A DNA stretch of 54,514 nt from an uncultured Bacilli bacterium (lineage in GTDB: Bacteria; Bacillota_I; Bacilli_A; RF39; UBA660): the NCBI GenBank assembly GCA_944331805.1, contig CALVIS010000002.1, positions 1 to 54,514 on the forward strand. Reading direction: 5' to 3'. This document shows, in pieces, positions 14,212 to 46,394 of the stretch (the stretch's first letter is position 1; each line of letters opens with the position of its first letter). The notes under the pieces are model-generated. The model made no database searches. It was not told the DNA's origin and saw nothing but the letters and a program-made list of their open reading frames with translations. A program made the translations under genes and the position numbers.

Positions 14212-15705
14212 ATGAAAAAAATATTATTATTCTTAACTCTAAGTTTTATTTATTTAATAAGTTCAACAACTATTGTAAATGCAAGTACTGATTCATTCTA
14301 TGAAGCAGAATATATTGATAATATTTATATGGTACGCTACGATAAAAGCACAGGTACAAAATATTATCAAAAAGCAAGAGTATATCGAAGAACAAGTGAT
14401 GGAAAACTTGCTTACTGTTTACAACCTTTCACTAAATTTAATCCTAGTAATAATTCTTATGAAACTGTATCATCTCTACCAGACATTAATAATGAAACAT
14501 TAGAAAGATTAAGAGATATTATAGGATTTGGTTATGGATATAGTGGACATTCAAACGATTTTAAATGGTATGCTGTTACCCAATTAATGATTTGGCAAAC
14601 AGTTGAACCTAATAATGAGTTTTATTTCACTGATACCTTAAATGGTAATAAAATAACAGCTTATGATGACGAAATTAATATTATTAATAGTGCTATAAAT
14701 AATAGTTATAGCATGCCAAGTTTCAATAACCAAACATTTTATGGAATAGTAGGAAAGCCTTTGACTTTTGAAGATACTAATGATATTGTAAAATTTTTTG
14801 CAAGACCAAATAATGATGTTGATATAAATAACAACCTAGTTACAGTTACTAAAAAGTCAAAAGGATGTTATGAAGAAACATTTACAAGATATTATAATTA
14901 TAGTAGTTCTATACTATTTTACTATAATCCAAATAGTCAACATCTAGCAACTATAGGAAATCCTAATAATAGAGAAGCTAAAGTAAGATATTGTTTTAAT
15001 GAATTAAAATTAAATATTAAAAAGGTTGATAAAGATACAGGAACAACAGAAAGTAAAGGAGAAGCTTCTCTAAAAGATACAGTATTTACTCTTTATAATG
15101 AAAATATGGAAAAAATTACTGACATATCTTTAGATGAAAATATGGAAACAACTTTATCAAGTAATGATTTTGATTTAGATTATGGTACTTATTATCTAAA
15201 AGAAACTAAAACAGGAACAGGTTATCTACCTAATGATGAAGTATATGAAATAAAATTTACAGGTGATAATCCTACTATAGAATTAACTATTGAAAATAAA
15301 GTTATAGAAAAAGAAGTAGTTATCAAAAAACTATATGGTGATGGTAAGCTTATGCAAACAGAGTCTAATATTACTTTTGAAATCTATGATAAAGATAACA
15401 ATCTAGTTAGAAGCATTACTACAGATCAAAATGGTCTTGCTAAAATTACTCTACCTTATGGTCATTATAAAATAGTACAAACTAATACTACAGAAGGATA
15501 CACCAAGATTAAACCTTTTGAAATTTTTATAAATGATATAGAGAAAGATTATTATTACACAATAAATGACTATAAAGAAAAGGAAGAAATACCAAAAGAA
15601 ACAATATCAATAGAAGTACCAAACACAAGTACTGAAGATAACAACTACCACTTATTAAGTTTAATATTACCTACATACTTAATTGTTAAGAAAAAGTTTA
15701 GTTAG
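14212..15705 (+). CDS. Cell-surface thioester-domain (TQXA-type) adhesin with CnaB/SpaA-like stalk domains and C-terminal sorting signal
   Basis: Signal peptide. AYC(69)LQP (tgt 14416-14418) plus AVTQ(124)LMIWQ (caa 14581-14583) match the Cys-Gln thioester pair pattern. KVDKDTGT...FTLYNE...YYLKETKTGTGY is the CnaB/prealbumin-like pattern. The C-terminus is VPNTS (15616-15630) + LLSLILPTYLIV + KKKFS. Confidence 0.75.
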   Translation: MKKILLFLTLSFIYLISSTTIVNASTDSFYEAEYIDNIYMVRYDKSTGTKYYQKARVYRRTSDGKLAYCLQPFTKFNPSNNSYETVSSLPDINNETLERLRDIIGFGYGYSGHSNDFKWYAVTQLMIWQTVEPNNEFYFTDTLNGNKITAYDDEINIINSAINNSYSMPSFNNQTFYGIVGKPLTFEDTNDIVKFFARPNNDVDINNNLVTVTKKSKGCYEETFTRYYNYSSSILFYYNPNSQHLATIGNPNNREAKVRYCFNELKLNIKKVDKDTGTTESKGEASLKDTVFTLYNENMEKITDISLDENMETTLSSNDFDLDYGTYYLKETKTGTGYLPNDEVYEIKFTGDNPTIELTIENKVIEKEVVIKKLYGDGKLMQTESNITFEIYDKDNNLVRSITTDQNGLAKITLPYGHYKIVQTNTTEGYTKIKPFEIFINDIEKDYYYTINDYKEKEEIPKETISIEVPNTSTEDNNYHLLSLILPTYLIVKKKFS

Positions 15706-36630: not shown

Positions 36631-36667
36631 AAAAAATAATATTAAAACCCTTACGAAACATAAGGGG
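36631..36667 (-). terminator. Terminator after the serine recombinase gene
   Basis: ccctta-cgaaaca-taaggg (36648-36666), then a T-rich run on the minus strand. Confidence 0.5.
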
Positions 36668-38194
36668 TTAATTACTAATTGGTGGAGCTGAAGTACCCAT
36701 AAGTGAACTTTCTATATCACTTACACGTGGTATCTTCTTCTCATAAGTTTTATTTTGTGTATTAAATATTATAGTTATACTGTCATCATACAAATAGACC
36801 TTATAGACTAGTGTATTAATTAACAACCTTCTGTACTTAATATCATCTATATTTCCTTTTCTCATTTGTGTTAAGAAAAATCTTACTTGTGGAACAGTCA
36901 ATTTAATAGATTGGCTTTCTTCTATAGCAATTTCATTTTTAATATTTGTTAATTCCACTTCAATTTTTTGTATCTCTTCAAATATAGATGTTTTAACTGT
37001 ATCTATATCACACATTTTAAGACTATTAAATAAATTGTTTTTCTGTTTCTCTAATTCTTTTAATTTTCTGTTAAGTCTTTTTAATTCTCCACTATCCATA
37101 TTTTCTTTGGCTAATTTTACAACGGTTTCAGCTATTTTATTTATATTATCATCAGTCAAAAGATTCCTAGCTTGTTCTACTACTAAATCTTCAATATAAT
37201 CTTTCTGAATAGGCTTTTTATCACAAAAACCAATTCTCGAATTATTACATTTATAATAAGTATGCAATTTCCCAGTTTTAGATGTACCACTATGGCCTGT
37301 CATCATTTCTTTACAATGACCACAAAATAATTTAGTAGTTAATAAATATTCTGTTTTTGCTCTTGCTCGTGCAGGAGCTTTTTTATTCTTTTTCATCATA
37401 TCTTGCACCTTGTTAAAAGTCTCATCATCAATAATCCTTGGTATGCCATCTTTTATCTCCATTTCTTTATAATTGTAAATGCCAACATATTTTTTATTTA
37501 ACAACATTTTTCTAAGACTATTTTTATTAAATTCTTTGCCTAATCCTGTTTTAATTCCCTTATCATTCAAATAATTAATAATATCAGCGACTCTTTTTCC
37601 TTTTGCATACATATCAAATATTTCTTTTACTATATGGACTGTCTCTTCATCTATTGCGAATTTCTTCTTTTTAACAATTTTACCATTTACATCAGTAAAA
37701 TTACTATCTACTTCTATAAGTTTTAATCCTAGAGGAACACTACCACCATTATAATAGCAATTTTCAGCATTTATTTTCATTCCTCTTTTTATCTTCTGAC
37801 CTAACTCAACAGAGAAATATTCTGCCATACCTTCAAGTACACTCTCCATTAATACACCACTTGCGTCATCAGAAATATTTTCTCTACTAGAAAAGACTCT
37901 AACACCATTTTTACTTAACTTCTTCTTATATATTGCACTATCATATCTATTACGAGCAAAACGGTCTAATTGATAAACTAAAATGCCCTCAAAAGTTTTT
38001 TTATTACTGTCCTCAATCATCTGCAAAAACTGTGGTCTATTATCATTCGTTCCAGTTGTAGCCCTATCTATATATTCATGAATAATATTATAATTATGGT
38101 CTTTTGCATATTTTCTACAATATTCTAACTGACCTTCAATGGACTGTTCATTTTGATTATGAGAACTATATCTAGCATATATTACTACATTCAT
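36668..38194 (-). CDS. Large serine recombinase
   Basis: VVIYARYSSHNQ (catalytic Ser), resolvase domain, recombinase domain, zinc ribbon CGHCKEMM...YYKCNN, and a C-terminal coiled coil. Confidence 0.9.
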   Translation of the reverse strand: MNVVIYARYSSHNQNEQSIEGQLEYCRKYAKDHNYNIIHEYIDRATTGTNDNRPQFLQMIEDSNKKTFEGILVYQLDRFARNRYDSAIYKKKLSKNGVRVFSSRENISDDASGVLMESVLEGMAEYFSVELGQKIKRGMKINAENCYYNGGSVPLGLKLIEVDSNFTDVNGKIVKKKKFAIDEETVHIVKEIFDMYAKGKRVADIINYLNDKGIKTGLGKEFNKNSLRKMLLNKKYVGIYNYKEMEIKDGIPRIIDDETFNKVQDMMKKNKKAPARARAKTEYLLTTKLFCGHCKEMMTGHSGTSKTGKLHTYYKCNNSRIGFCDKKPIQKDYIEDLVVEQARNLLTDDNINKIAETVVKLAKENMDSGELKRLNRKLKELEKQKNNLFNSLKMCDIDTVKTSIFEEIQKIEVELTNIKNEIAIEESQSIKLTVPQVRFFLTQMRKGNIDDIKYRRLLINTLVYKVYLYDDSITIIFNTQNKTYEKKIPRVSDIESSLMGTSAPPISN

Positions 38195-38913
38195 TCCTTT
38201 TTCCTCCTTATCTCTTCTTCTAATTTATATAATTGTTCTTCCATATTTAATATAAAAAGTTTATTAAATTGAGAGCTAGGTATTATTAAATCTTCTCCAC
38301 TTTGTTTATCTCTAATTATTTTTACATCATCTGTTGCTTTAAGTTCTAACTCTTTAGTAGATTCATTAACATAATAAAGATTGCTTGTTGTGTCGTATGT
38401 ATGCCACAAATAACTTCCTATATATTCAAAAACTTTAGATTCAGGCTCTTTAGATATAAGATAGTTAATTGTTTTGAGTATTTGCGAACTTGTAAATACA
38501 TTATCCTCTTCTTTTTCATTTTTTGCATTCTTTTTAAATTCATTTAATACTTCTATAGCATAATCATTTAAACCCGTTACTTTGTTAACTATTTTCCAAT
38601 CATCTTTGGTACTTTTAAAATTTGATAATCCTAATAAATAATCTGTAGAGACATTAAAATAATTTGCCATCTTAATTATTTTATCAGCATTAGGAATTTG
38701 TTCAGCCTTAACATACGCATTAACACTAGCTTTTCCCAGTTTTAAATCTCTACATAGGTCTGCCTCATTTAGATTTCTTTCGTCTAAACAAAGACATAAT
38801 CTTCGTGCAAACTCAACCATACTAACATTACCTTTAGCATTTTCTAAAGCTTTCTTCTCATCAAATAAATCAATCTTTCTTTCAGTTTTTTCATATTTTC
38901 TTAATTTCGTCAT
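38191..38913 (-). CDS. XRE-family HTH repressor (cI/Stl-like) with a long C-terminal domain lacking a peptidase signature
   Basis: EFARRLCLCLDERNLNEADLCRDLKLGKASVNAYVKAEQIPNADKIIKMANYFNVSTDYLLG. ATGA overlap with the recombinase gene. I see no S24 Ser/Lys motif. Confidence 0.75.
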   Translation of the reverse strand: MTKLRKYEKTERKIDLFDEKKALENAKGNVSMVEFARRLCLCLDERNLNEADLCRDLKLGKASVNAYVKAEQIPNADKIIKMANYFNVSTDYLLGLSNFKSTKDDWKIVNKVTGLNDYAIEVLNEFKKNAKNEKEEDNVFTSSQILKTINYLISKEPESKVFEYIGSYLWHTYDTTSNLYYVNESTKELELKATDDVKIIRDKQSGEDLIIPSSQFNKLFILNMEEQLYKLEEEIRRKKE

Positions 38914-38925
38914 TTTACACCTCAT

Positions 38926-39109
38926 TCCTTCCTACGAATTTTTTTATTGTTTTCTAGCCATTTTAACCAAGTAACGAATTATTTACAAAATAGCAAATTT
39001 TAATGTTATTATGGTGGTGTCGTTGTTGAAGAACGGCGAAAAATTTTCGTTCGTTAAAGCAAATATATCATTTGATGTTGTTGTTGTCAAGATATAAAAG
39101 GAGGAGTAT
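38926..39109. promoter_or_regulatory. Divergent control region between the repressor and the Cro-like gene
   Basis: Near-palindrome cgaaaaattttcg (39037-39049). ACGAATT recurs at 38934-38940 and 38974-38980, and inverted TTCGT copies lie at 39046-39055. Confidence 0.5.
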
Positions 39110-39298
39110 ATGAAAAAAGCAAATAACGATATCAGAGAAGCTATAAACAAAGCTAATCTGAAGTATTATCAAGTAGCTAAAGCTTATGGACTATCAGATA
39201 GTAATTTTACTAAATTACTTCGATTCGAATTAAGCAATGATAAAAAAGAAAAAATACTAAAAATTATTAAGCAACTAGAAAAGTCAAATCACATTTAG
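39110..39298 (+). CDS. Small Cro-like HTH protein
   Basis: 62 aa; LKYYQVAKAYGLSDSNFTKLLR HTH-like segment. Strong SD AAAGGAGGAG. Divergent from the repressor. Confidence 0.6.
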   Translation: MKKANNDIREAINKANLKYYQVAKAYGLSDSNFTKLLRFELSNDKKEKILKIIKQLEKSNHI

Positions 39299-39324
39299 AA
39301 ATTTAGAAGGGAGATGTTTCTAAT

Positions 39325-39468
39325 ATGCTTAGTGAAAAACAAATTAAACAAATAGCTAAAGAAATTGTAAATGATATTGATAAGTTTGTTAGAGAACATC
39401 AAACTCAATATGATTTATTTCTTAAGGAGGTAGAAAAGAAAAATCATGCTAACAAAAACAAAATATAA
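39325..39468 (+). CDS. Small ORF (47 aa), unknown function (possible excision/directionality or regulatory factor)
   Basis: Below the track cutoff. ATG 39325 follows AGAAGGGAG. Reads MLSEKQIKQIAKEIVNDIDKFVREHQTQYDLFLKEVEKKNHANKNKI. Confidence 0.35.
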   Translation: MLSEKQIKQIAKEIVNDIDKFVREHQTQYDLFLKEVEKKNHANKNKI

Positions 39469-39835
39469 AAATAAGAAAGTAATAGTAGATGGAATTTTAT
39501 TTGATAGTAAATTAGAAGCTGAAAGATATAAGCAACTAAAAGAGCTAGAGCAAAAGGGAGTAATAAAAAACTTGCAATTACAAAAGAATTTTGAATTAAT
39601 TCCAAAATTTAAAAAAAGAGGTAAAGTATATCGAAAAACGTCATATAGAGCTGATTTTACTTACACTATTGTAGCAACTGATGAAACTATAGTAGAAGAT
39701 ACTAAAGGTTTTAAAACAGACGTTTACTTATTAAAGAAAAAACTATTCGAATATAAATTCCCTAATTTAGAAATTAAAGAGGTGCAAAATGAAAAAAAGC
39801 AATCAAAAAAATACAGTTTTAGATATAGAAGATAA
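39446..39835 (+). CDS. DUF1064 phage protein (nuclease-fold)
   Basis: KYKNKKVIVDGILFDSKLEAERYKQLKELEQKGVIKNLQLQ...YRADFTY...EDTKG is the DUF1064 pattern. Confidence 0.7.
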   Translation: MLTKTKYKNKKVIVDGILFDSKLEAERYKQLKELEQKGVIKNLQLQKNFELIPKFKKRGKVYRKTSYRADFTYTIVATDETIVEDTKGFKTDVYLLKKKLFEYKFPNLEIKEVQNEKKQSKKYSFRYRR

Positions 39836-40091
39836 TTCATTTGAAATTATTCCTCAATTAGGTGGAATTATAGTTTACCCACATTTAGAAAGTCCCATTA
39901 CAATAAGTTACAATGCTTGGAAAAAAGTTTATGAATATATAACTGAACAAGAAGAGAATGAATATTTAATGTTTATTGATAAAGAAAAAAGGGAAGTAGA
40001 AGAGGAAGAAGAATCAAAACAATTTAGTAGCCCTCAAACTGTACACGTTACGTATGAGGCTGATGAAAAAACATTAGAAGAAGAGGAATGA
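39789..40091 (+). CDS. Hypothetical acidic protein
   Basis: 100 aa, SD AAAGAGGTG, E-rich C-terminus. Confidence 0.5.
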   Translation: MKKSNQKNTVLDIEDNSFEIIPQLGGIIVYPHLESPITISYNAWKKVYEYITEQEENEYLMFIDKEKREVEEEEESKQFSSPQTVHVTYEADEKTLEEEE

Positions 40092-40095
40092 TAAA

Positions 40096-41931
40096 ATGTT
40101 AAAATTTATAGAATTAAATGCAGATAAATCCCCAAAGACCAATTTTAGTATTACTTATTCTAATCTAGACAGGTTAGAAAATGCTGGACTCCTTTTAAAT
40201 AGGAATACTGTTATTGTGGATTTTGATAATGATAATTTTGAAGAACAAAGAATCATTAACTATTTTATCCAAAACTTTCCTACTCTTAGTGTAGAGACAG
40301 ATAGAGGGATTCATTTATATTATTCTATCCCCAAAAATATCAACATTAAAAAAAGAGCTGATTTAATAACAGTAGGAGGTTTTCAAGTTGATTATTTAAC
40401 AGGAGATAAAGCTTATGCTATTGTTAAAAGAAGAGGAGTTCAACGTAAAACTAACCAGCCTTTAACACTAGATAATTTACCAGAATTACCAGTTTTATTA
40501 TATCCACTTTTTAAGCAAAAAAATTTACTTAGTGGTATGGTAAAAGGAGACGGAAGAAATGAAGCACTATTTCATCATTTACGTTATGTTCTAGAAGAAT
40601 ATAAAACGGTAAAAATAGAGGGACTTGGAGATTTTATTAATAGTAATGTTTTTAAAGAACCCTTATCATTAAAGGAATTAAATAATATTATAAATAGTGT
40701 TCCTAACTATGTCGATTTAGAAAAAGCATATACAGGTAATCCAAAAGATATGATTGCTTTTGCAAAATTCATGGTTAAGATACTCGATATAAAATACTAT
40801 AATAATCTTCTATATTTTAAAGATGATTTAAAGTATAGTACAAACCAAATTAAATTAAAAAGATTAATGGCTCAATATCTAGAGCTTAAAACTACTCAAG
40901 ATAATGAAGCTATAAATCAAATGTATAAATATGCCAATTTTATTGAAAATGGCAGTGATAATTTTTATGTAAAAATAAGAAATGGGATTATTGTAGAAGA
41001 TAAAGTAATAAATCAAGATTGTGGCTTTACACCTTTTTATTTAGATATAGAGTATAATCCTATGGCTTATGATGAAAATGTAGATAAATTTTTAAATTTT
41101 ATATGTCTTGATGATAAGCAATTAAGGATAGTTATAGAAGAATTATTAGGTCATTGTCTTATGATTGATAGATTTCCCCATAAAATGTTTTTTCTTATAG
41201 GAAAAGGAGCTAATGGTAAATCAACCTTTGTAGAGATGATTACTAAATGGACTGGAGAACTATCTAGTCATATTGATATAGCCAATTTTGATGATAGTAC
41301 AAGTATCGCTTCTCTCATTGGAAAACTAGTAAATATTGCAGATGATGTTGACGCAATTTATTTTGAAAAGTCAAAAAATTTAAAGACAATGGCTAGTGGA
41401 AATACAATAGGTGCAAGACCTATTTATTCACAGCCCATTACATTTAAAAATTCTGCGACCTTAATTTTTACGGCCAACGAGCCTCCTACCTTCAAAGATA
41501 AATCTGATGGAATTATCAGAAGGCTAATGGTTATTCCTTTTAGGAATAAAGTAAAAAGAAAGATTTATAACCTTGAGGAATTATTAAGTACAGATAATGC
41601 CAAAAGTTATTTACTTAATTTAGCTCTAAAAGGATTAAAACGTCTATATGACAATGGACTAGAATTTAGTGAGTGTAAAGTTATAAGTGAATCAACTAAA
41701 GAGTACCAATTAGAGAATGATACTGTACTTTCATTTTTAAATGATTATGCTCACAGTATCGAAAATAAAGAAATTGCTTCAATATATTCTCAGTATATTT
41801 CTTACACCGAGAGTATGAAGCAAAAACCTCTAAGCAAAAATAAATTTACTCGTAGGCTTAAAGAAATAGGCTATACAACAAAAGTTAAGAACATAAATGG
41901 TTATAGTGTAAGAATCTATATAAAAGAATAA
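40096..41931 (+). CDS. Prim-Pol / P4-D5-type primase-helicase (replication initiator)
   Basis: N-terminal VIVDFDND...DRGIHLYY (Prim-Pol DxD and sGxH motifs). Central Walker A FFLIGKGANGKSTF and Walker B NIADDV (SF3 helicase). C-terminal winged-helix-like tail. Confidence 0.85.
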   Translation: MLKFIELNADKSPKTNFSITYSNLDRLENAGLLLNRNTVIVDFDNDNFEEQRIINYFIQNFPTLSVETDRGIHLYYSIPKNINIKKRADLITVGGFQVDYLTGDKAYAIVKRRGVQRKTNQPLTLDNLPELPVLLYPLFKQKNLLSGMVKGDGRNEALFHHLRYVLEEYKTVKIEGLGDFINSNVFKEPLSLKELNNIINSVPNYVDLEKAYTGNPKDMIAFAKFMVKILDIKYYNNLLYFKDDLKYSTNQIKLKRLMAQYLELKTTQDNEAINQMYKYANFIENGSDNFYVKIRNGIIVEDKVINQDCGFTPFYLDIEYNPMAYDENVDKFLNFICLDDKQLRIVIEELLGHCLMIDRFPHKMFFLIGKGANGKSTFVEMITKWTGELSSHIDIANFDDSTSIASLIGKLVNIADDVDAIYFEKSKNLKTMASGNTIGARPIYSQPITFKNSATLIFTANEPPTFKDKSDGIIRRLMVIPFRNKVKRKIYNLEELLSTDNAKSYLLNLALKGLKRLYDNGLEFSECKVISESTKEYQLENDTVLSFLNDYAHSIENKEIASIYSQYISYTESMKQKPLSKNKFTRRLKEIGYTTKVKNINGYSVRIYIKE

Positions 41932-42041
41932 ATTACCTTTTATTACAAAACATAAATTATTAAGTAATCAATTAAATCCATATAAACTCATATTAAAAAG
42001 ATAATAATTACAAAATTACTATATTTATTTAATTTAATAAT

Positions 42042-42106
42042 AAAAATAAATAAATATAAATAAATAAATAAATAAATATAAATAAATAAATAAATAAATA
42101 AATAAA
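42042..42106. repeat. (AAAT)n microsatellite, 14 units in blocks of 3, 5 and 6 separated by AT
   Basis: Parsed directly: aa(aaat)3 at (aaat)5 at (aaat)6 aaag. Lies in the gap downstream of the primase gene (stop at 41931). Confidence 0.9.
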
Positions 42107-42120
42107 GAGTATCTCTAAAA

Positions 42121-42141
42121 ATATGTAATATGTAATATGTA
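42121..42141. repeat. Three tandem ATATGTA heptamers
   Basis: atatgta atatgta atatgta, 16 nt before ATG 42158. Confidence 0.9.
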
Positions 42142-42157
42142 ATTTTGAGGAGGAAAA

Positions 42158-42484
42158 ATGGAAGAAGAATATATTAAAAGATTTATTTTATCTAACAACA
42201 GTCCAATAATTTTTGAAAGCTCATTTCAAAGCTATTATACACAGTATGTACTCTACGTAAAGAGCGAAGGAGTCAAGCCAGTAAGTAAAAATAGATTCAG
42301 TCGTTATTTAAGAAAATATGGTTTTGAAACAAAAGTTGTCCGTAATCAAAATAGTAGATTGTGCGAAAGAGTTATAACAATGCCTACAAATATATTATTA
42401 CTTTGGAATGCTATAAGTAATAGAAAGCTAAAGGAGGAAAATGATGAAACAAAAACACGCACTACAAATAACGTTTCTTTATGA
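42158..42484 (+). CDS. Small protein resembling the C-terminal domain of the adjacent primase
   Basis: FQSYYTQYVLYVKSEGVKPVSKNRFSRYLRKYGFETKVV compares with primase residues IYSQYISYTESMKQKPLSKNKFTRRLKEIGYTTKVK. Confidence 0.6.
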   Translation: MEEEYIKRFILSNNSPIIFESSFQSYYTQYVLYVKSEGVKPVSKNRFSRYLRKYGFETKVVRNQNSRLCERVITMPTNILLLWNAISNRKLKEENDETKTRTTNNVSL

Positions 42485-42653
42485 AACTGTAGAAGGAAAA
42501 TGGGGATTTAAAACTATTACCATAAACCTTGAAGAAAAATATAAAAATAGAAAAAAGTTTAGCACTCGCCAATTAAATCAGTTAATTAAAGAACAGCTAA
42601 ACCTAAAGACTGTATGTATTTCAAACATTACCCACATTTATAAGAACACGTAA
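42441..42653 (+). CDS. Hypothetical small protein
   Basis: 70 aa, SD AAGGAGG, overlaps the upstream gene. Confidence 0.45.
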   Translation: MMKQKHALQITFLYETVEGKWGFKTITINLEEKYKNRKKFSTRQLNQLIKEQLNLKTVCISNITHIYKNT

Positions 42654-42666
42654 CACGTAACAAAAT

Positions 42667-42698
42667 AGGAAGAGCTAATATTAGATTCTCTTCCTTTT
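42667..42698. terminator. Bidirectional terminator between convergent modules
   Basis: aggaagag-(13 nt)-ctcttcct. Confidence 0.55.
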
Positions 42699-42700
42699 AC

Positions 42701-43492
42701 TTATATTTGAGTTATAGTTATCTGTTTTGCTCCAAAAGGTATAAAAGAATTATAATCTTTTACTATAACATCATCTACTTTTATCTCATATAAACAAAAT
42801 TCCTCTACATAGTCATTATAAGACATTCCAGTATTAGCTAATTGATTGTTCATATCACTAGGTAATATAGCCCAAATATTATCACTCCAATTAATTATTT
42901 TATGGTTATCATCAATATAATCATTCAATGTACTAAAAACAGGGTCTAACGGCCTATATGAGATATTACTTGTATTATTATTAAAAACAAGTTGAGTTGA
43001 TTCATCTATTGGATATTCTTCTAAATTACCTAAATTATCTATTTCTATATATCTATATGTATTATCATCAGAATTAGAATTTATATCACTTACATAACTA
43101 CATTTAAAAGTATCCTCATTCTCAATAGAACATTCACTAAAAGCTTCTCCATCAAGAGATAAAGAAAAGCCATCTTCATTTTCTGTAAATTCATAGTGAT
43201 TAGTCATATCAACATCATTATAATATTGATTATTAGCTTTAGTTACTACATAGAAAGTATTATCATCTGTAAAACAATATAGTTCTTTACCATATAGTAT
43301 ATCTTCCGTTAATTCATCAGGATTTTGTCCAGTATAATAACAACGGTTTGATAGCCTTGTTATATCTCTAAAATCTTCTATTTCTTCACTATTTTCATCA
43401 GCTAAAATAGTAATAAAAGTAGAAAAGCCAAAAAATATAATAACAAGCAATATCCATATTTTTGTTTTATTTTTTATATTATCTTTTTTCAT
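42701..43492 (-). CDS. Cargo protein 4: N-terminally anchored extracytoplasmic protein, unknown family
   Basis: TM segment IWILLVIIFFGFSTFITILA, then an acidic/aromatic-rich domain of about 220 aa. SD AAGGAAG. Confidence 0.6.
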   Translation of the reverse strand: MKKDNIKNKTKIWILLVIIFFGFSTFITILADENSEEIEDFRDITRLSNRCYYTGQNPDELTEDILYGKELYCFTDDNTFYVVTKANNQYYNDVDMTNHYEFTENEDGFSLSLDGEAFSECSIENEDTFKCSYVSDINSNSDDNTYRYIEIDNLGNLEEYPIDESTQLVFNNNTSNISYRPLDPVFSTLNDYIDDNHKIINWSDNIWAILPSDMNNQLANTGMSYNDYVEEFCLYEIKVDDVIVKDYNSFIPFGAKQITITQI

Positions 43493-43524
43493 ATTAAACT
43501 TCCTTTTCTTATACTTTATATCTA

Positions 43525-44406
43525 CTAATATTCTAAAGATAAAAGTAATTGTTCAGATTCTTTTGCAATGCCCCAAAGATTTTCATATTCATATTGAACT
43601 GAGGTCTCAAATAGCAAACTAGTAACATTTCTCACATTTGTATTTCTTAAAAATCTTTCTTCACAATAATTATTACCAGAGCATGGACTATAATCATATA
43701 TTACCGTATATCCACTTTCTTCTCCTCCAGCATAGGCTGTACATAGTTTTATAGAACTACCATCATAAAACCTATACAATGTTCCAGAAGGGAAAGAAGA
43801 ATCTAACTGCATTTGATAATCATAGCCATTTTGTGTTAATAATTCTTGGAATTTTTCAGTAGGACTAAATCTTATCCTACCATAAGGGGATTTATCAACA
43901 CCTATAGCTTTATCAAAAAAATCATAATAACTATCTAATTTTTTTAAAGATATTTCTTGATTATATGTATCTACAGTATCTATTTTTGTGAGACTTGTTA
44001 TATCATTATATTCAAAACTAAATGTATCATTACAAAATTCATTATAATAATTATGAGTAAAAGAATCTCTTATTTGTTCACTACTAATATGATTTTCTTC
44101 AACATCAATTAACATTTTGCAATTTAAATCTTTTGTATATTCATTAGAGTAATCTAAGTCAACATATAATTTTGTTAATTTATTATCAGCTTCACTATAT
44201 GACAAATTAGCTATTTGAACATCAGTTATCTCAGTCTTACTACTAGAAAAAAGCGAATTGTAAGAATATAATGCCACATACTCCTCAACTATTGAATCTA
44301 TTTCTTTAACATATAAAGCACTGTCATTATTACTATCATCAGTACACCCAGTTAAACTTATCGCTCCAACACTTAGTAAGAAAAGAATTAAAAGCTTTCT
44401 TCTCAT
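43525..44406 (-). CDS. Cargo protein 3: lipoprotein, unknown family
   Basis: Signal peptide + lipobox SLTGC. SD GGGAGGAG. Confidence 0.65.
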   Translation of the reverse strand: MRRKLLILFLLSVGAISLTGCTDDSNNDSALYVKEIDSIVEEYVALYSYNSLFSSSKTEITDVQIANLSYSEADNKLTKLYVDLDYSNEYTKDLNCKMLIDVEENHISSEQIRDSFTHNYYNEFCNDTFSFEYNDITSLTKIDTVDTYNQEISLKKLDSYYDFFDKAIGVDKSPYGRIRFSPTEKFQELLTQNGYDYQMQLDSSFPSGTLYRFYDGSSIKLCTAYAGGEESGYTVIYDYSPCSGNNYCEERFLRNTNVRNVTSLLFETSVQYEYENLWGIAKESEQLLLSLEY

Positions 44407-44440
44407 ACCAAATTACTCCTCCCATCTTTTAATTTATCTT

Positions 44441-45130
44441 TTAAGAATGTTTATTTATCTTATTTTTCATTTCTATTAGTACATTATAAACATCTTGTCC
44501 AAATACCCCGACATATATTTCTTGTCCATCTGTTAATAAAACAGATACATTATATACAGTTATAGTTTTATCTTTTTCAGTCATAAGATTTTCTTTAACA
44601 AGTAATTCCTTAACTTCACTCAATTTATATGTTTTTTCTATTAATTTTTCATCTTTCTTTGTAAAACTAAAATAAATTAGCTCTTTATCTTTTATGATTA
44701 AATATGTAAAGTCTAAATAATAAAACTTTTTTAAATATATTCCTATATTTTCATTTAACATTTCATCTAATTCTTTTAATTTATTAGTTAAATCATATTT
44801 TTTAACAATCTCATTTCTCTTTTTATTACGATTAAATGAGATTAGTAAAATAATTCCCCAAATAATAAACCATATAATATATTGAGATGTTGGTAAACCC
44901 GGAAAACTCCAAGGTAATTCGGGATATATCATTACCAAAAAGTTATAAATTAACTCTATTAAACATACAAAACTACTTACAAAGCCAAATACCCACTTTA
45001 AAACAAACATCATAATAAAATCAACAATAAAGCTTATAATAGTATTTCTAAAATTAATTGTTAATAAATCTAATATAAGTCCTACAATAATAACCCAAAT
45101 AACCGTTACAATAACCGTTAATATATCCAT
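44441..45130 (-). CDS. Cargo protein 2: polytopic membrane protein with soluble C-terminal domain, unknown family
   Basis: About four hydrophobic helices in the first ~100 aa, then NRNKKRNE and a beta-rich domain of about 120 aa. SD GAGAGGAG. Confidence 0.6.
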   Translation of the reverse strand: MDILTVIVTVIWVIIVGLILDLLTINFRNTIISFIVDFIMMFVLKWVFGFVSSFVCLIELIYNFLVMIYPELPWSFPGLPTSQYIIWFIIWGIILLISFNRNKKRNEIVKKYDLTNKLKELDEMLNENIGIYLKKFYYLDFTYLIIKDKELIYFSFTKKDEKLIEKTYKLSEVKELLVKENLMTEKDKTITVYNVSVLLTDGQEIYVGVFGQDVYNVLIEMKNKINKHS

Positions 45131-45178
45131 ACAATACTCCTCTCTTCATATACTAACTATCCAATATTTATAAATTGT

Positions 45179-45535
45179 TTAGTCTCTCAATATGTCTAAT
45201 ACTACATCTTTATCACTATCTGCATATCTATAATAAGAATCCCCATCTGCTGACTCTAAGTAACCAAACCATATTGTTTCTGAATCATAATAATTGATTA
45301 GTTCATCATGAGTCGTTGTACATTCAACTAAAATAATACCATCATCTTCTTGAGAATTTGCTATACAGCTAAGTTCAGATTTTGTAGGAGTATCAAAAGC
45401 TTGTTCAGAAATATATTCTAAAGCAGCTTCTTCAGAATTCCATTTATCTACTTCTGCTATTTCATTTTCATTACCACAGCCTGTAACACCTATTAATATA
45501 CATACTAGAATAGAAAAGAAACATAGTTTTTTCAT
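45179..45535 (-). CDS. Cargo protein 1: small lipoprotein, unknown family
   Basis: MKKLCFFSILVCILIGVTGCGNE (lipobox). ATG 45535 follows AAAGGAG. I reject the track extension to 45592. Confidence 0.6.
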   Translation of the reverse strand: MKKLCFFSILVCILIGVTGCGNENEIAEVDKWNSEEAALEYISEQAFDTPTKSELSCIANSQEDDGIILVECTTTHDELINYYDSETIWFGYLESADGDSYYRYADSDKDVVLDILRD

Positions 45536-45592
45536 TTCCAAATTTCTCCTTTCTAAAAAATAAACCCTTGAAACTTTTATAATCCATACCAC

Positions 45593-45701
45593 ACTCCTAT
45601 CTCTCTTATATTAACTATTATATATTATTGCAATACATTTTGCAATGCATACTTTTTGTGCATTTTACAATACGATAAATATGTACAGGAGGTAATACAA
45701 A
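45593..45701. promoter_or_regulatory. Divergent control region with TGCA-centred palindromes
   Basis: Perfect palindrome tattgcaata (45626-45635), followed by ttgcaatgcat, gtgcatt and ttacaatac. Confidence 0.45.
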
Positions 45702-45890
45702 ATGTCTTTTCAAATTAAACCATACAAAAAAGAAACAGAAAACAAGACTATAAGGTTTCCTATTACACTAATCGCTAGAATAGAAAAAGCTATTAAGAAT
45801 AAAGATATTACTTTTTCTAGATTTGTTATTCAAGCTTGTGAGTATGCTCTAGATAATATGGAAACCGATAAAAAAGACAAATCCCACTAA
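45702..45890 (+). CDS. Ribbon-helix-helix (CopG/Arc-like) DNA-binding protein
   Basis: KTIRFPITLIARIEKAIKNKDITFSRFVIQACEYAL fits the beta-strand + two-helix RHH pattern. Confidence 0.6.
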   Translation: MSFQIKPYKKETENKTIRFPITLIARIEKAIKNKDITFSRFVIQACEYALDNMETDKKDKSH

Positions 45891-45906
45891 TTATAATTTA
45901 CATAAT

Positions 45907-45941
45907 AAAAACGATTAAGTATCTTGCCTAACCGTTTTTTT
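45907..45941 (+). terminator. Imperfect intrinsic terminator after the RHH gene
   Basis: aaaacgattaag...ctaaccgtttt followed by a T run. Confidence 0.45.
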
Positions 45942-46013
45942 CTTTGAAATATTTAATTTTATATTAACTACGAAACCTCCTACAAAGTATAAAAAGTTCG
46001 TTTTATTTTCTAA

Positions 46014-46394
46014 TGGTGGAGATGAGGAGATTCGAACTCCTGTCCAAAAATAAAGCTACATAAACTTCTACAAGTTTAGATGATTAAGAAACTTCGAACT
46101 ATTTTCTAGTAACCATCAACTAATAAAACAGTCCTAGTCTAAAAGATTCCATCATAGTCTAGACAAACTATAACTATATCCTGCTAAAATAAACCATCTT
46201 AACTTAACACAGGAAATTAAGAAAAGACAGTGCATTTACCTATACTAGGCGAAAGCTAACTCAGTGTTTTTATTAAATAAGTTAGCAAATGCTGTTTTAA
46301 TACTGTTTCCAGTTATATTTAATTTAGTTTGTAACGTAAACAACTCGACTTGCCATTTATGCTCTATTATTCCTGTCGAAACCAAAGCATCCCC
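46014..46394 (-). ncRNA. ssrA: tmRNA (SsrA)
   Basis: The reverse complement starts GGGGATGCTTTGGTTTCGACAGG and ends GGACAGGAGTTCGAATCTCCTCATCTCCACCA (tRNA-Ala-like acceptor/T-arm). The internal tag frame reads ...AFANLFNKNTELAFA, with stop TAG at 46245-46247. Confidence 0.9.

What the first reader, a model, noticed from the sequence alone, without database searches (positions are those of the whole stretch)
42701..45535. Four-gene envelope-protein cargo operon of unknown families: candidate novel exclusion/defence module
Seen: four co-directional genes with 32-48 nt gaps, each with a strong SD.
- A 118-aa lipoprotein (lipobox VTGC).
- A 229-aa protein with about 4 TM helices plus a soluble C-terminal domain.
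- A 293-aa lipoprotein (lipobox LTGC).
- A 263-aa N-terminally anchored exoprotein.

I recognise no family or catalytic motif in any of them.

They occupy the accessory slot of the satellite-like element, convergent to its replication module and under a divergent RHH regulator.

Established: prophages and satellites of Gram-positives carry membrane or lipoprotein superinfection-exclusion factors (e.g. Ltp, Sie2009) and anti-phage systems in this position.

Inference: this is a multi-component envelope-located system that blocks phage adsorption or DNA entry, or remodels the surface.
Basis: inference. Interest (0 to 1): 0.72.

Follow-up and report, generated by a model that had tools for sequence, protein, structure and literature searches.

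The report
Swappable envelope-protein genes on mobile island
Four real genes for cell-surface proteins of unknown families sit in the cargo slot of a small phage-derived mobile island in uncultured gut Bacilli, but sister islands carry them in many different subsets, so they are exchangeable single cassettes rather than one four-part machine, and their suspected anti-phage role is still unproven.

Summary
The four minus-strand genes are real: each has an SD, the gaps are 48/34/32 nt, the lipoboxes and TM segments are as described, and dN/dS is 0.25-0.55. They run from an RHH-flanked promoter to a terminator hairpin.

They are the tmRNA-proximal cargo of a 9.3-kb integrative element. It carries a large serine recombinase, a cI/Cro-like pair and a phage-type primase-helicase. 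Its att core, CTCCACCA, lies at the tmRNA 3' end. Copies 96-99% identical occur in several lineages of uncultured gut Bacilli.

None of the four matches Pfam, PHROGs, NCBIfam, PADLOC or PDB. An exhaustive HMMER scan of 1.84 billion representatives found:
- P3: no relative.
- P2 and P4: one distant relative each.
- P1: about 28 relatives.

P1's ~85-aa two-Cys domain folds confidently (pLDDT 93) with no PDB match. It recurs as regulator-adjacent cargo on other mobile elements.

The "four-component system" is not supported. Beside the identical regulator, sister elements carry P1-P2-P3-P4, P2-P3-P4, P2-P3, P1-P4 or P4 alone. A more distant relative carries P2-P4.

This is a hotspot of individually exchangeable envelope-protein cassettes. 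Phage exclusion is the most plausible role, but it is inference only.

The parts
45179..45535 (-). P1: 118-aa lipoprotein (lipobox VTGC, Cys20). The mature part is an ~85-aa acidic domain with two conserved Cys (Cys57, Cys72).
   Evidence: The ORF and SD are. A family of ~28 representative clusters was found and aligned as A3. The AF2 model has pLDDT 92.8 and no PDB fold match. The gene is absent from variants D, E, F and C.
44441..45130 (-). P2: 229-aa membrane protein with ~4 TM helices. Its loop-TM4 segment (PELPWSFPGLPTSQYIIWFIIW) is nearly invariant. The C-terminal tail is basic and probably cytoplasmic.
   Evidence: Homologues are 59% identical in L025/L031 and 27% in P0108.
43525..44406 (-). 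P3: 293-aa acidic lipoprotein (lipobox LTGC, Cys21). It is a strict orphan.
   Evidence: Searches found only its own cluster, at >=94% identity. It is always found downstream of P2 and never without it.
42701..43492 (-). P4: 263-aa secreted or N-terminally anchored acidic protein with four invariant Cys. The model shows a beta-rich N-terminal domain and an alpha/beta C-terminal domain.
   Evidence: The AF2 model has pLDDT 74. Fold matches are only weak, to lipocalin-like and beta-grasp proteins. It is the sole cargo gene in L046.
45617..45671 (-). Operon promoter-like site (TTGCAA-17-TATAAT, 45645..45617), overlapped by repeated TTGCAAT(A/G)CAT / CATTTT(G/A)CAAT motifs that are candidate RHH operators.
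   Evidence: ATTGCAA motifs are also present in the 66-72%-identical element L031.
45702..45890 (+). Divergent 62-aa RHH regulator (YlcI/YnfO family). It is 100% identical across cargo variants.
42667..42695 (-). Terminator-like hairpin plus U-run that closes the operon. It lies between the cargo operon and the convergent orf70.
   Evidence: -10.9 kcal/mol, z -2.1.
46014..46394 (-). tmRNA gene. Its 3'-terminal CTCCACCA (46021..46014) is one copy of the att core.
   Evidence: tmRNA is adjacent to the cargo end in nearly all related loci.
36668..38194 (-). Large serine recombinase. The second att core copy, CTCCACCA, is at 36687..36680, so the last four codons and the stop codon lie in host DNA. 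The displaced native tmRNA terminator is at 36666..36648.
   Evidence: The recombinase C-terminus differs with each host flank (505-528 aa).
38191..42653 (.). Element backbone. It comprises a cI-like HTH gene (38925..38191, -), a Cro-like 62-aa gene (39110..39298), DUF1064 (39446..39835), a primase-helicase with DUF5906/D5 domains (40096..41931), orf108 (42158..42484) and orf70 (42441..42653).
   Evidence: The primase is 53-60% identical to primases of real phages in IMG/VR.

Best explanation
The region is the cargo hotspot of a 9.3-kb site-specific integrative element, roughly 36688..46013. The element is phage-derived and satellite-like, and it inserts at the 3' end of the tmRNA gene.

A conserved expression platform sits at the tmRNA-proximal end. 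It consists of the RHH regulator gene, a divergent promoter with repeated ATTGCAA-type operator motifs, and a downstream terminator. This platform drives a string of self-contained cassettes, each with its own SD, that encode envelope proteins.

In this copy there are four cassettes:
- P1, a lipoprotein.
- P2, a 4-TM protein.
- P3, a lipoprotein.
- P4, a secreted or anchored protein.

The cassettes are gained, lost and recombined individually. P2-P3 behave as a pair. P4 can stand alone. P1 is optional. They therefore act singly or pairwise at the cell surface, not as one four-part complex.

Inferred, not shown: they are expressed from the integrated element. The most likely benefit is prophage-style superinfection exclusion or surface masking. 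Under this reading, each protein blocks adsorption or DNA entry of a different phage, which would explain the combinatorial turnover.
For: Shown:
- Gene reality and operon anatomy.
- Element boundaries: the CTCCACCA core is duplicated at the tmRNA 3' end and inside the recombinase 3' end, and the native tmRNA terminator is displaced to 36666..36648.
- Mobility: elements 96-99% identical lie next to tmRNAs with at least 5 different tag peptides and different flanks.
- Cargo combinations under a 100%-identical RHH: P1P2P3P4, P2P3P4, P2P3, P1P4' and P4' alone. P2''P4'' occurs in an element 66-72% identical. Breakpoints fall at gene boundaries.
- The primase is phage-type, with 53-60% identical copies in IMG/VR phages that have terminase and portal genes.
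- The element itself has no structural gene recognised.

Supporting the surface or anti-phage inference:
- The proteins carry lipoboxes, a signal sequence or TM segments, conserved Cys pairs and acidic ectodomains.
- In 7 of 7 informative genome loci, P1-domain genes lie on mobile elements. In at least five of them the gene sits close downstream of a divergent HTH regulator gene. One such element (L019) is another tmRNA-integrated serine-recombinase element, with the gene in the same terminal slot.
- The distant P4 homologue lies 2.3 kb from a Tiamat TmtA-like defence gene.
- Fast turnover at a fixed slot mirrors the defence hotspots of P2 phages and P4 satellites (PMC9122126).
- Surface lipoproteins of temperate phages are proven exclusion factors (Ltp, PMC3952083).
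Against: - No sequence or fold similarity to any known exclusion or defence protein was found.
- No relatives were found in phage genomes or in IMG/VR.
- The host is uncultured and no phage of it is known, so there is no phenotype.
- The variable content is the same four orphan genes in different subsets. True defence hotspots show unrelated systems replacing one another.
- dN/dS of 0.25-0.55 shows constraint but no sign of an arms race, apart from the replaced N-terminus of P4.
- Satellite status is itself unproven, because no packaging or capsid-redirection gene is recognised.
- The weak lipocalin-like fold of P4, and the fusion of a P1 domain to PASTA repeats in one homologue, would fit ligand or cell-wall binding unrelated to phages.
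Confidence: 0.4

Rival explanations
1. The cassettes are lysogenic-conversion cargo unrelated to phages. They would be surface proteins that change how the host interacts with the gut, for example by binding ligands or nutrients, adhering, remodelling the cell wall or evading immunity. The element would carry them because they raise host fitness.
For: - The P4 N-terminal domain weakly resembles a Bacteroides lipocalin-family protein (E 0.098, prob 0.93).
- The P1 domain occurs fused to PASTA repeats (P0118) and to Zn-ribbon-TM architectures. That pattern suits a general extracytoplasmic binding or sensing domain.
- There is no defence signature.
- All hosts are gut MAGs.
Against: - All informative P1-domain loci are on mobile elements and none is in a housekeeping context.
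- The P2, P3 and P4 families are confined to this element lineage, apart from two distant loci that are HTH-flanked.
- Rapid presence/absence turnover among near-identical elements is more typical of conflict genes.
Confidence: 0.3
2. The four proteins assemble into one multi-component envelope machine that blocks phage adsorption or DNA entry.
For: - The genes form one tight operon with one promoter and one terminator.
- The predicted locations are complementary: two lipoproteins, one polytopic membrane protein and one exoprotein.
Against: - Six different subsets exist in related elements, including P4 alone and P2-P3 alone.
- The closest P1 homologue and the distant P2 and P4 homologues have none of the other partners next to them.
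Confidence: 0.05
3. The proteins serve the element's own life cycle rather than the host. Examples would be interfering with the helper phage's lysis or adsorption, preventing re-adsorption of particles to cells that already carry the element, or aiding transfer. P2 (4 TM plus a cytoplasmic domain) would act as a membrane effector of the Rex/Abi or holin/antiholin type.
For: - The backbone is satellite-like and has a phage-type primase.
- P2 and/or P4 are present in every complete element seen.
- The TM3-loop-TM4 core of P2 is almost invariant down to 59% overall identity.
Against: - Complete elements exist with P2-P3 only (L049) and with P4 only (L046), so neither P2 nor P4 is essential to the element.
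- The operon is transcribed away from the replication module and has its own regulator, as morons do.
- It shows no similarity to holins, RexB or Abi proteins.
Confidence: 0.12
4. The genes form a secreted toxin or bacteriocin system. P4 would be a Cys-stabilised exoprotein toxin. The membrane protein and the lipoproteins (P2, P1, P3) would provide immunity.
For: - P4 has a signal sequence and four invariant Cys.
- Immunity proteins of Gram-positive bacteriocins are often small polytopic membrane proteins or lipoproteins. This point rests on my own knowledge.
Against: - P4' occurs alone, with no candidate immunity gene, in L046.
- No bacteriocin, peptidase or export family matches.
- No toxin fold matches.
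Confidence: 0.06

Closest known systems
Ltp-type superinfection-exclusion lipoproteins of temperate Streptococcus phages (TP-J34; PMC3952083)
   Same: They are surface-exposed lipoproteins encoded by an integrated phage-type element of a low-GC Gram-positive. They are accessory genes expressed apart from the lytic genes.
   Different: - P1 and P3 have no sequence match: the Pfam scan gave no hit.
- P1 has no fold match in the PDB.
- ltp lies in the lysogeny module next to int and the repressor (PMC3952083). Here the genes lie at the opposite end of the element, under an RHH regulator.
- The function of these genes is untested.
[quoted passage not shown]
   Same: The slot is fixed and flanked by conserved backbone genes. 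Gene content differs among otherwise near-identical elements. The carrier is a small integrative element related to phages.
   Different: - The content here is four orphan envelope proteins in different subsets, not interchangeable known cytoplasmic defence systems.
- There is no PADLOC hit.
- The host clade, the integrase type (large serine recombinase) and the integration site (tmRNA) all differ.
Phage-inducible chromosomal islands (PICIs) of Gram-positives with accessory genes at the island end (SatelliteFinder families, PMC10085698)
   Same: Size is about 9-10 kb. The gene order is int, a cI/Cro-like pair, a primase-helicase, then accessory genes. The primase is homologous to phage primases.
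   Different: - The integrase is a serine recombinase, not a tyrosine recombinase.
- No terS, ppi, cpm or capsid genes are recognised.
- Induction and packaging are unknown.
Membrane exclusion proteins such as lactococcal Sie2009, P22 SieA (PMC10883804) and T4 Imm
   Same: They are small prophage-encoded membrane proteins that act at the envelope without partner proteins. This fits the one-cassette-one-function reading for P2 or P4.
   Different: There is no homology. P2 is a 4-TM protein with a 129-aa cytoplasmic tail. Nothing here has been tested.

Membership tests
Ltp-type exclusion lipoproteins | Sequence match to the Ltp family profile (a Pfam Ltp lipoprotein family exists, as far as I recall) | tested here: not met
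   The Pfam-A scan of P1 and P3 returned no family at E <= 0.1. PHROG hits cover only the signal peptides, at E > 0.01.
Ltp-type exclusion lipoproteins | Lipoprotein signal peptide with a lipobox cysteine | tested here: met
   P1 has ..LIGVTGC (Cys20) and P3 has ..ISLTGC (Cys21), each after a hydrophobic N-terminus.
Ltp-type exclusion lipoproteins | Blocks phage DNA injection when expressed | not testable with these tools
   This needs phage challenge experiments. The host is uncultured.
Known anti-phage defence systems (PADLOC-DB v2) | At least one protein matching a defence-system model | tested here: not met
   No hit was found for P1, P3, P4, the RHH, orf108 or orf70. P2 gave only CARF_TM at E 0.048 over TM segments.
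Mobile-element variable (defence-type) hotspot | Fixed position bounded by conserved backbone genes | tested here: met
   The slot always lies between the RHH/tmRNA end and orf70/orf108.
Mobile-element variable (defence-type) hotspot | Different gene content in otherwise closely related elements | tested here: met
   Six cargo combinations were found. Five of them have a 100% identical RHH and a backbone 93-100% identical at the protein level.
Mobile-element variable (defence-type) hotspot | Content has anti-phage activity | not testable with these tools
   There is only guilt by association. The P4 homologue lies near a TmtA-like gene.
Phage satellite (PICI-like) | Integrase, a repressor/Cro-like pair and a primase/replication module in a ~10-kb island | tested here: met
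Phage satellite (PICI-like) | Genes for hijacking helper packaging (terS, ppi, cpm or capsid genes) | tested here: inconclusive
   Neither orf108 nor orf70 gave a packaging-related Pfam or PHROG match. orf108 hit only DNA-primase PHROGs, in line with its similarity to the primase C-terminus, and orf70 hit nothing. orf47, orf100 and the Cro-like gene were not scanned against PHROGs.
Phage satellite (PICI-like) | Helper-dependent induction and transfer | not testable with these tools
   No P1, P3 or P4 relative was found in IMG/VR. Only primase homologues turned up there, in real phages.
tmRNA-targeting integrative island | Insertion at the ssrA 3' end with a duplicated core | tested here: met
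   CTCCACCA is present at 46021..46014 and at 36687..36680. The native terminator is displaced. tmRNA is adjacent in 12 of 15 loci scanned.

The most novel reading that the evidence does not exclude
P1-P4 would be four previously undescribed protein families. Each would be an independent envelope-level phage-exclusion determinant. They would be shuffled as cassettes on a tmRNA-targeting satellite family that spreads among uncultured gut Bacilli. The P1 domain would be a confidently folded ~85-aa two-Cys fold with no PDB counterpart. It would also be a widespread, mobile-element-borne surface exclusion or receptor-masking domain.
Probability: 0.25. Interest if true: 0.7.

Novelty: new variant of a known kind. 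Interest (0 to 1): 0.45.

Why it matters
If the cassettes do exclude phages, they would add several new families to the very short list of Gram-positive envelope-level exclusion factors. That includes one domain with an apparently new fold.

They would also show that small satellite-like islands in uncultured gut Bacilli keep a hotspot of surface defences, not only cytoplasmic ones.

Even without a known function, the locus is a clean natural example of cassette-by-cassette turnover behind an invariant regulator and promoter. The subsets that occur in nature already indicate which proteins can work alone (P4) and which probably work together (P2 with P3).

Tried and rejected
- **Concatenated query, word-indexed search.** A P1+P2+P3+P4 query returned nothing, not even the self clusters. 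This was a wasted search. The same concatenation worked in the exhaustive HMMER scan, at a cost of a few bits of sensitivity.
- **Rosetta-stone idea.** I tested whether the P2 cytoplasmic tail equals the PH-like N-terminal domain that is fused to P1 domains elsewhere. hhalign gave probability 0.3%, so this is rejected at the sequence level.
- **Common origin of P1, P3 and P4.** hhalign gave probabilities of 0.1%. Rejected.
- **Phage origin of the cargo.** Four searches found nothing:
  - megablast of the whole element against phages;
  - tblastn of P3 against phages;
  - IMG/VR scans with P3, the P1 family and the P4 family;
  - the BFVD fold search with P4.
- **PDB.** Sequence searches for P1-P4 found nothing meaningful.
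- **tmRNA as part of the element.** I first suspected this because homology seemed to run into the tmRNA gene in L002-L004. It is rejected. The tmRNAs differ between hosts and the crossover is at the tmRNA 3' end.
- **Short direct repeats at cassette borders.** One example is the 21-nt repeat 45125-45145 / 45582-45602 that flanks P1. Its position is suggestive, but it does not stand out from the many chance repeats in this AT-rich DNA. I make no claim of a dedicated cassette-exchange mechanism.
- **P3 structure.** No prediction was attempted. P3 has no diverse homologues, and the two structure jobs went to P1 and P4.
Full report
**Observation**

The four ORFs lie on the minus strand exactly where stated:
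- P1: 45535..45179, 118 aa.
- P2: 45130..44441, 229 aa.
- P3: 44406..43525, 293 aa.
- P4: 43492..42701, 263 aa.

The gaps between them are 48, 34 and 32 nt. Each start codon is preceded by a purine-rich SD: AGGAG, GGAG, GGAGGAG and a weaker AAGGAAG.

The protein features match the description:
- P1 and P3 have canonical lipoboxes (VTGC and LTGC) after hydrophobic N-termini.
- P2 is hydrophobic over residues 1-100 (about four TM helices), followed by a basic 129-aa tail.
- P4 has a single N-terminal hydrophobic helix.
- The mature parts of P1, P3 and P4 are strongly acidic.

A promoter-like site (TTGCAA-17-TATAAT, 45645..45617) lies in the 166-nt gap to the divergent 62-aa RHH gene. It is overlapped by repeated TTGCAAT(A/G)CAT motifs. 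The RHH matches the YlcI/YnfO family at E 1.8e-7. A hairpin of -10.9 kcal/mol followed by a U-run closes the operon, facing the convergent orf70.

The genes are under purifying selection, with dN/dS 0.25-0.55 in ten pairwise comparisons.

**What the genes sit in**

A tmRNA gene occupies 46394..46014, next to smpB. The 3'-terminal CTCCACCA of the tmRNA recurs at 36687..36680. That position is inside the last codons of a 508-aa large serine recombinase gene. It is followed by what must be the original tmRNA terminator, at 36666..36648.

The element is therefore about 36688..46013, or 9.3 kb. Its gene order is:
- the recombinase;
- a cI-like HTH gene;
- a Cro-like gene;
- small ORFs;
- DUF1064;
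- a DUF5906/D5 primase-helicase;
- orf108 and orf70;
- the cargo operon and the RHH gene, in the opposite orientation.

Copies 96-99.9% identical occur in many gut metagenome assemblies and MAGs labelled 'uncultured Bacilli bacterium'. They lie next to tmRNAs with at least five different tag peptides and with different flanking genes. The element has therefore moved recently between host lineages and always uses the same site.

The element as a whole does not match any phage record. Its primase, however, is 53-60% identical to primases of IMG/VR contigs that are real phages with terminase, portal and head genes. No structural or packaging gene is recognisable in the element. 'Satellite-like' is a fair label, but it is not proven.

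The host encodes a thioester/SpaA-type adhesin, YbbR and a CtpB-like protease. That is consistent with a walled Gram-positive.

**Family searches**

None of the four proteins matches Pfam-A, PHROGs, PADLOC or NCBIfam. The only hits are sub-threshold ones on signal peptides or TM segments. PDB sequence searches were also empty.

The word-indexed search of 5.8 billion proteins found only copies of P3 at >=97% identity. An exhaustive HMMER scan of 1.84 billion 50%-identity representatives used the four sequences concatenated. It gave:
- P3: only its own cluster.
- P4: its own cluster plus one distant relative (P0103, 33% identity).
- P2: its own cluster plus one distant relative (P0108, 27%).
- P1: about 28 clusters.

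A profile search later added P4 relatives at 52% and 45% identity.

**The P1 domain**

The P1 family shares an ~85-aa extracytoplasmic domain with two conserved cysteines. Its motif is ELxC...IILVKCTTT...TIWYGY...ADG.

In most relatives the domain follows a single TM helix. It is then combined with a cytoplasmic N-terminal domain or a Zn-ribbon, and in one case is followed by PASTA repeats.

With this alignment AlphaFold2 gives a confident model (pLDDT 92.8, order H-E-E-H-E-E-H). Foldseek finds no significant PDB match (best E 0.63, TM <= 0.44).

In the species-representative genomes, every informative P1-domain locus is on a mobile element, and in at least five of them the gene lies close downstream of a divergently transcribed HTH gene:
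- L019 is another tmRNA-integrated element, with a serine recombinase at 42% identity. The P1-domain gene sits in the same terminal slot.
- L020, L023 and L024 carry primase homologues.
- L017 and L018 carry a PcfJ-like gene. There the P1-domain gene heads a cluster of further lipoproteins and membrane proteins.

**P4 structure**

With five sequences the model is moderate (pLDDT 74.3; C-terminal half 80-94). It shows a beta-rich N-terminal domain and an alpha/beta C-terminal domain.

The best PDB matches are weak. They are a Bacteroides lipocalin-family protein (E 0.098) and ubiquitin-like beta-grasp domains. Nothing matches in BFVD.

Four cysteines are invariant down to 30% identity. That fits an extracytoplasmic protein.

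**The decisive result: the four genes are not a unit**

Looking up the contigs that encode the variants and the RHH gave six cargo configurations in the same slot:

| Configuration | Loci |
|---|---|
| P1-P2-P3-P4 | window, L001-L004, L016, L042-L044, L051 |
| P2-P3-P4 | L045, L050 |
| P2-P3 | L037-L041, L047-L049 |
| P1-P4' | L032-L036 |
| P4' alone | L046 |
| P2''-P4'' (59% and 45-52% identity) | L025-L031 |

Further points on these variants:
- The first five configurations share a 100% identical RHH.
- The P2''-P4'' configuration belongs to an element that is 66-72% identical at the DNA level and has a 93%-identical RHH.
- L049 carries P2-P3 in an element that still has orf70, orf108 and the primase.
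- In P4', the N-terminal ~50 residues are replaced.
- Breakpoints fall at gene boundaries. For example, the P2-P3 variant lacks exactly 45570..45145 (P1) and 43487..42706 (P4).
- P3 is never seen without P2. P4 can be alone. P1 is optional.
- The closest P1 homologue (56%) and the distant P2 and P4 homologues are not accompanied by the other genes.
- The distant P4 homologue carries a premature TAA. It lies 2.3 kb from a Tiamat TmtA-like gene.

**Interpretation**

What is shown: a conserved regulator-promoter-terminator platform sits at the tmRNA-proximal end of a mobile, phage-derived island. It carries individually exchangeable cassettes for envelope proteins of new families.

What is inferred: the cassettes act singly (P4, P1) or as a pair (P2-P3) at the cell surface. 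Their most likely benefit is prophage-style exclusion of other phages.

The inference rests on four points:
- the position of the genes;
- their fast turnover, which parallels the P2/P4 hotspots (PMC9122126);
- the precedent of phage-encoded surface lipoproteins such as Ltp (PMC3952083);
- the recurrent mobile-element association of the P1 domain.

Nothing ties any of the four to a known exclusion or defence protein, and the host is uncultured. I put about 0.9 on the structural description and about 0.35-0.4 on the anti-phage role.

The main rival is surface cargo unrelated to phages (0.3). The literal four-component machine is largely refuted (0.05).

**Novelty and score**

The kind of feature, an accessory hotspot on a phage-related island, is known. 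The proteins, the P1 fold and the combinatorial use of the same few envelope cassettes are not. I therefore class it as a new variant of a known kind.

Interest is moderate (0.45). The finding is well defined and testable in principle, but no function has been shown and the host is hard to work with.

Noticed in passing
window 36668-36700 and 46000-46025: The serine recombinase ORF runs across the att core CTCCACCA into host DNA. Its last residues and stop codon therefore change with the integration context. Lengths of 505-528 aa are seen in different hosts. The excised circle would encode yet another C-terminus.
   Followed up: partly
window 42158-42484: orf108 resembles the C-terminal winged-helix part of the element's own primase. 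It is 34% identical to Pri residues 528-597 and hits PHROG 864 positions 572-649. It looks like a duplicated primase C-terminal domain expressed as a separate small protein.
   Followed up: partly
window 45582-45602 and 45125-45145: A 21-nt imperfect direct repeat (18 of 21) covers an SD plus ATGGAT. It flanks the P1 cassette close to where the P1-less variant is deleted. The upstream copy looks like a relic of the P2 translation start. This hints that P1 was inserted between the promoter and P2.
   Followed up: partly
L008 4781-5797: In one assembly the primase region of the element is replaced. In its place are a 338-aa protein with a Zn-ribbon and a transposase-like look (judged by eye, not scanned) and a 253-aa ORF. 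This suggests an IS insertion or decay of the element while the cargo operon is kept.
   Followed up: no
L037 2425-5168; L045 1376-2449; L047 1136-2209: Some P2-P3 or P2-P3-P4 variants are followed by a Fic-domain gene and small unknown ORFs instead of the replication and integration module. This could be a different island or a remnant occupying the same tmRNA site.
   Followed up: no
L019 10946-13120; also L020, L023 and L024: Related islands that carry a PH-like-TM-P1-domain protein also encode an SSB, an MBL-fold/RMMBL nuclease and a ClpP-family protease. This is an unusual cargo set for a small integrative element.
   Followed up: partly
L011 457-4981: The distant P4 homologue has a premature TAA. 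It sits next to an 837-aa gene and a 669-aa gene. The 669-aa product matches Tiamat TmtA models (E 5.6e-52), so this is a defence-island-like context.
   Followed up: partly
L052-L058 (IMG/VR): Real phages of 12-37 kb carry a primase 53-60% identical to the element's. They are candidates for the helper or parent phage lineage.
   Followed up: partly
window 14212-15705: The host encodes a 497-aa protein with a thioester domain and SpaA prealbumin-like repeats. This is a covalent-adhesin type typical of Gram-positive surfaces.
   Followed up: no
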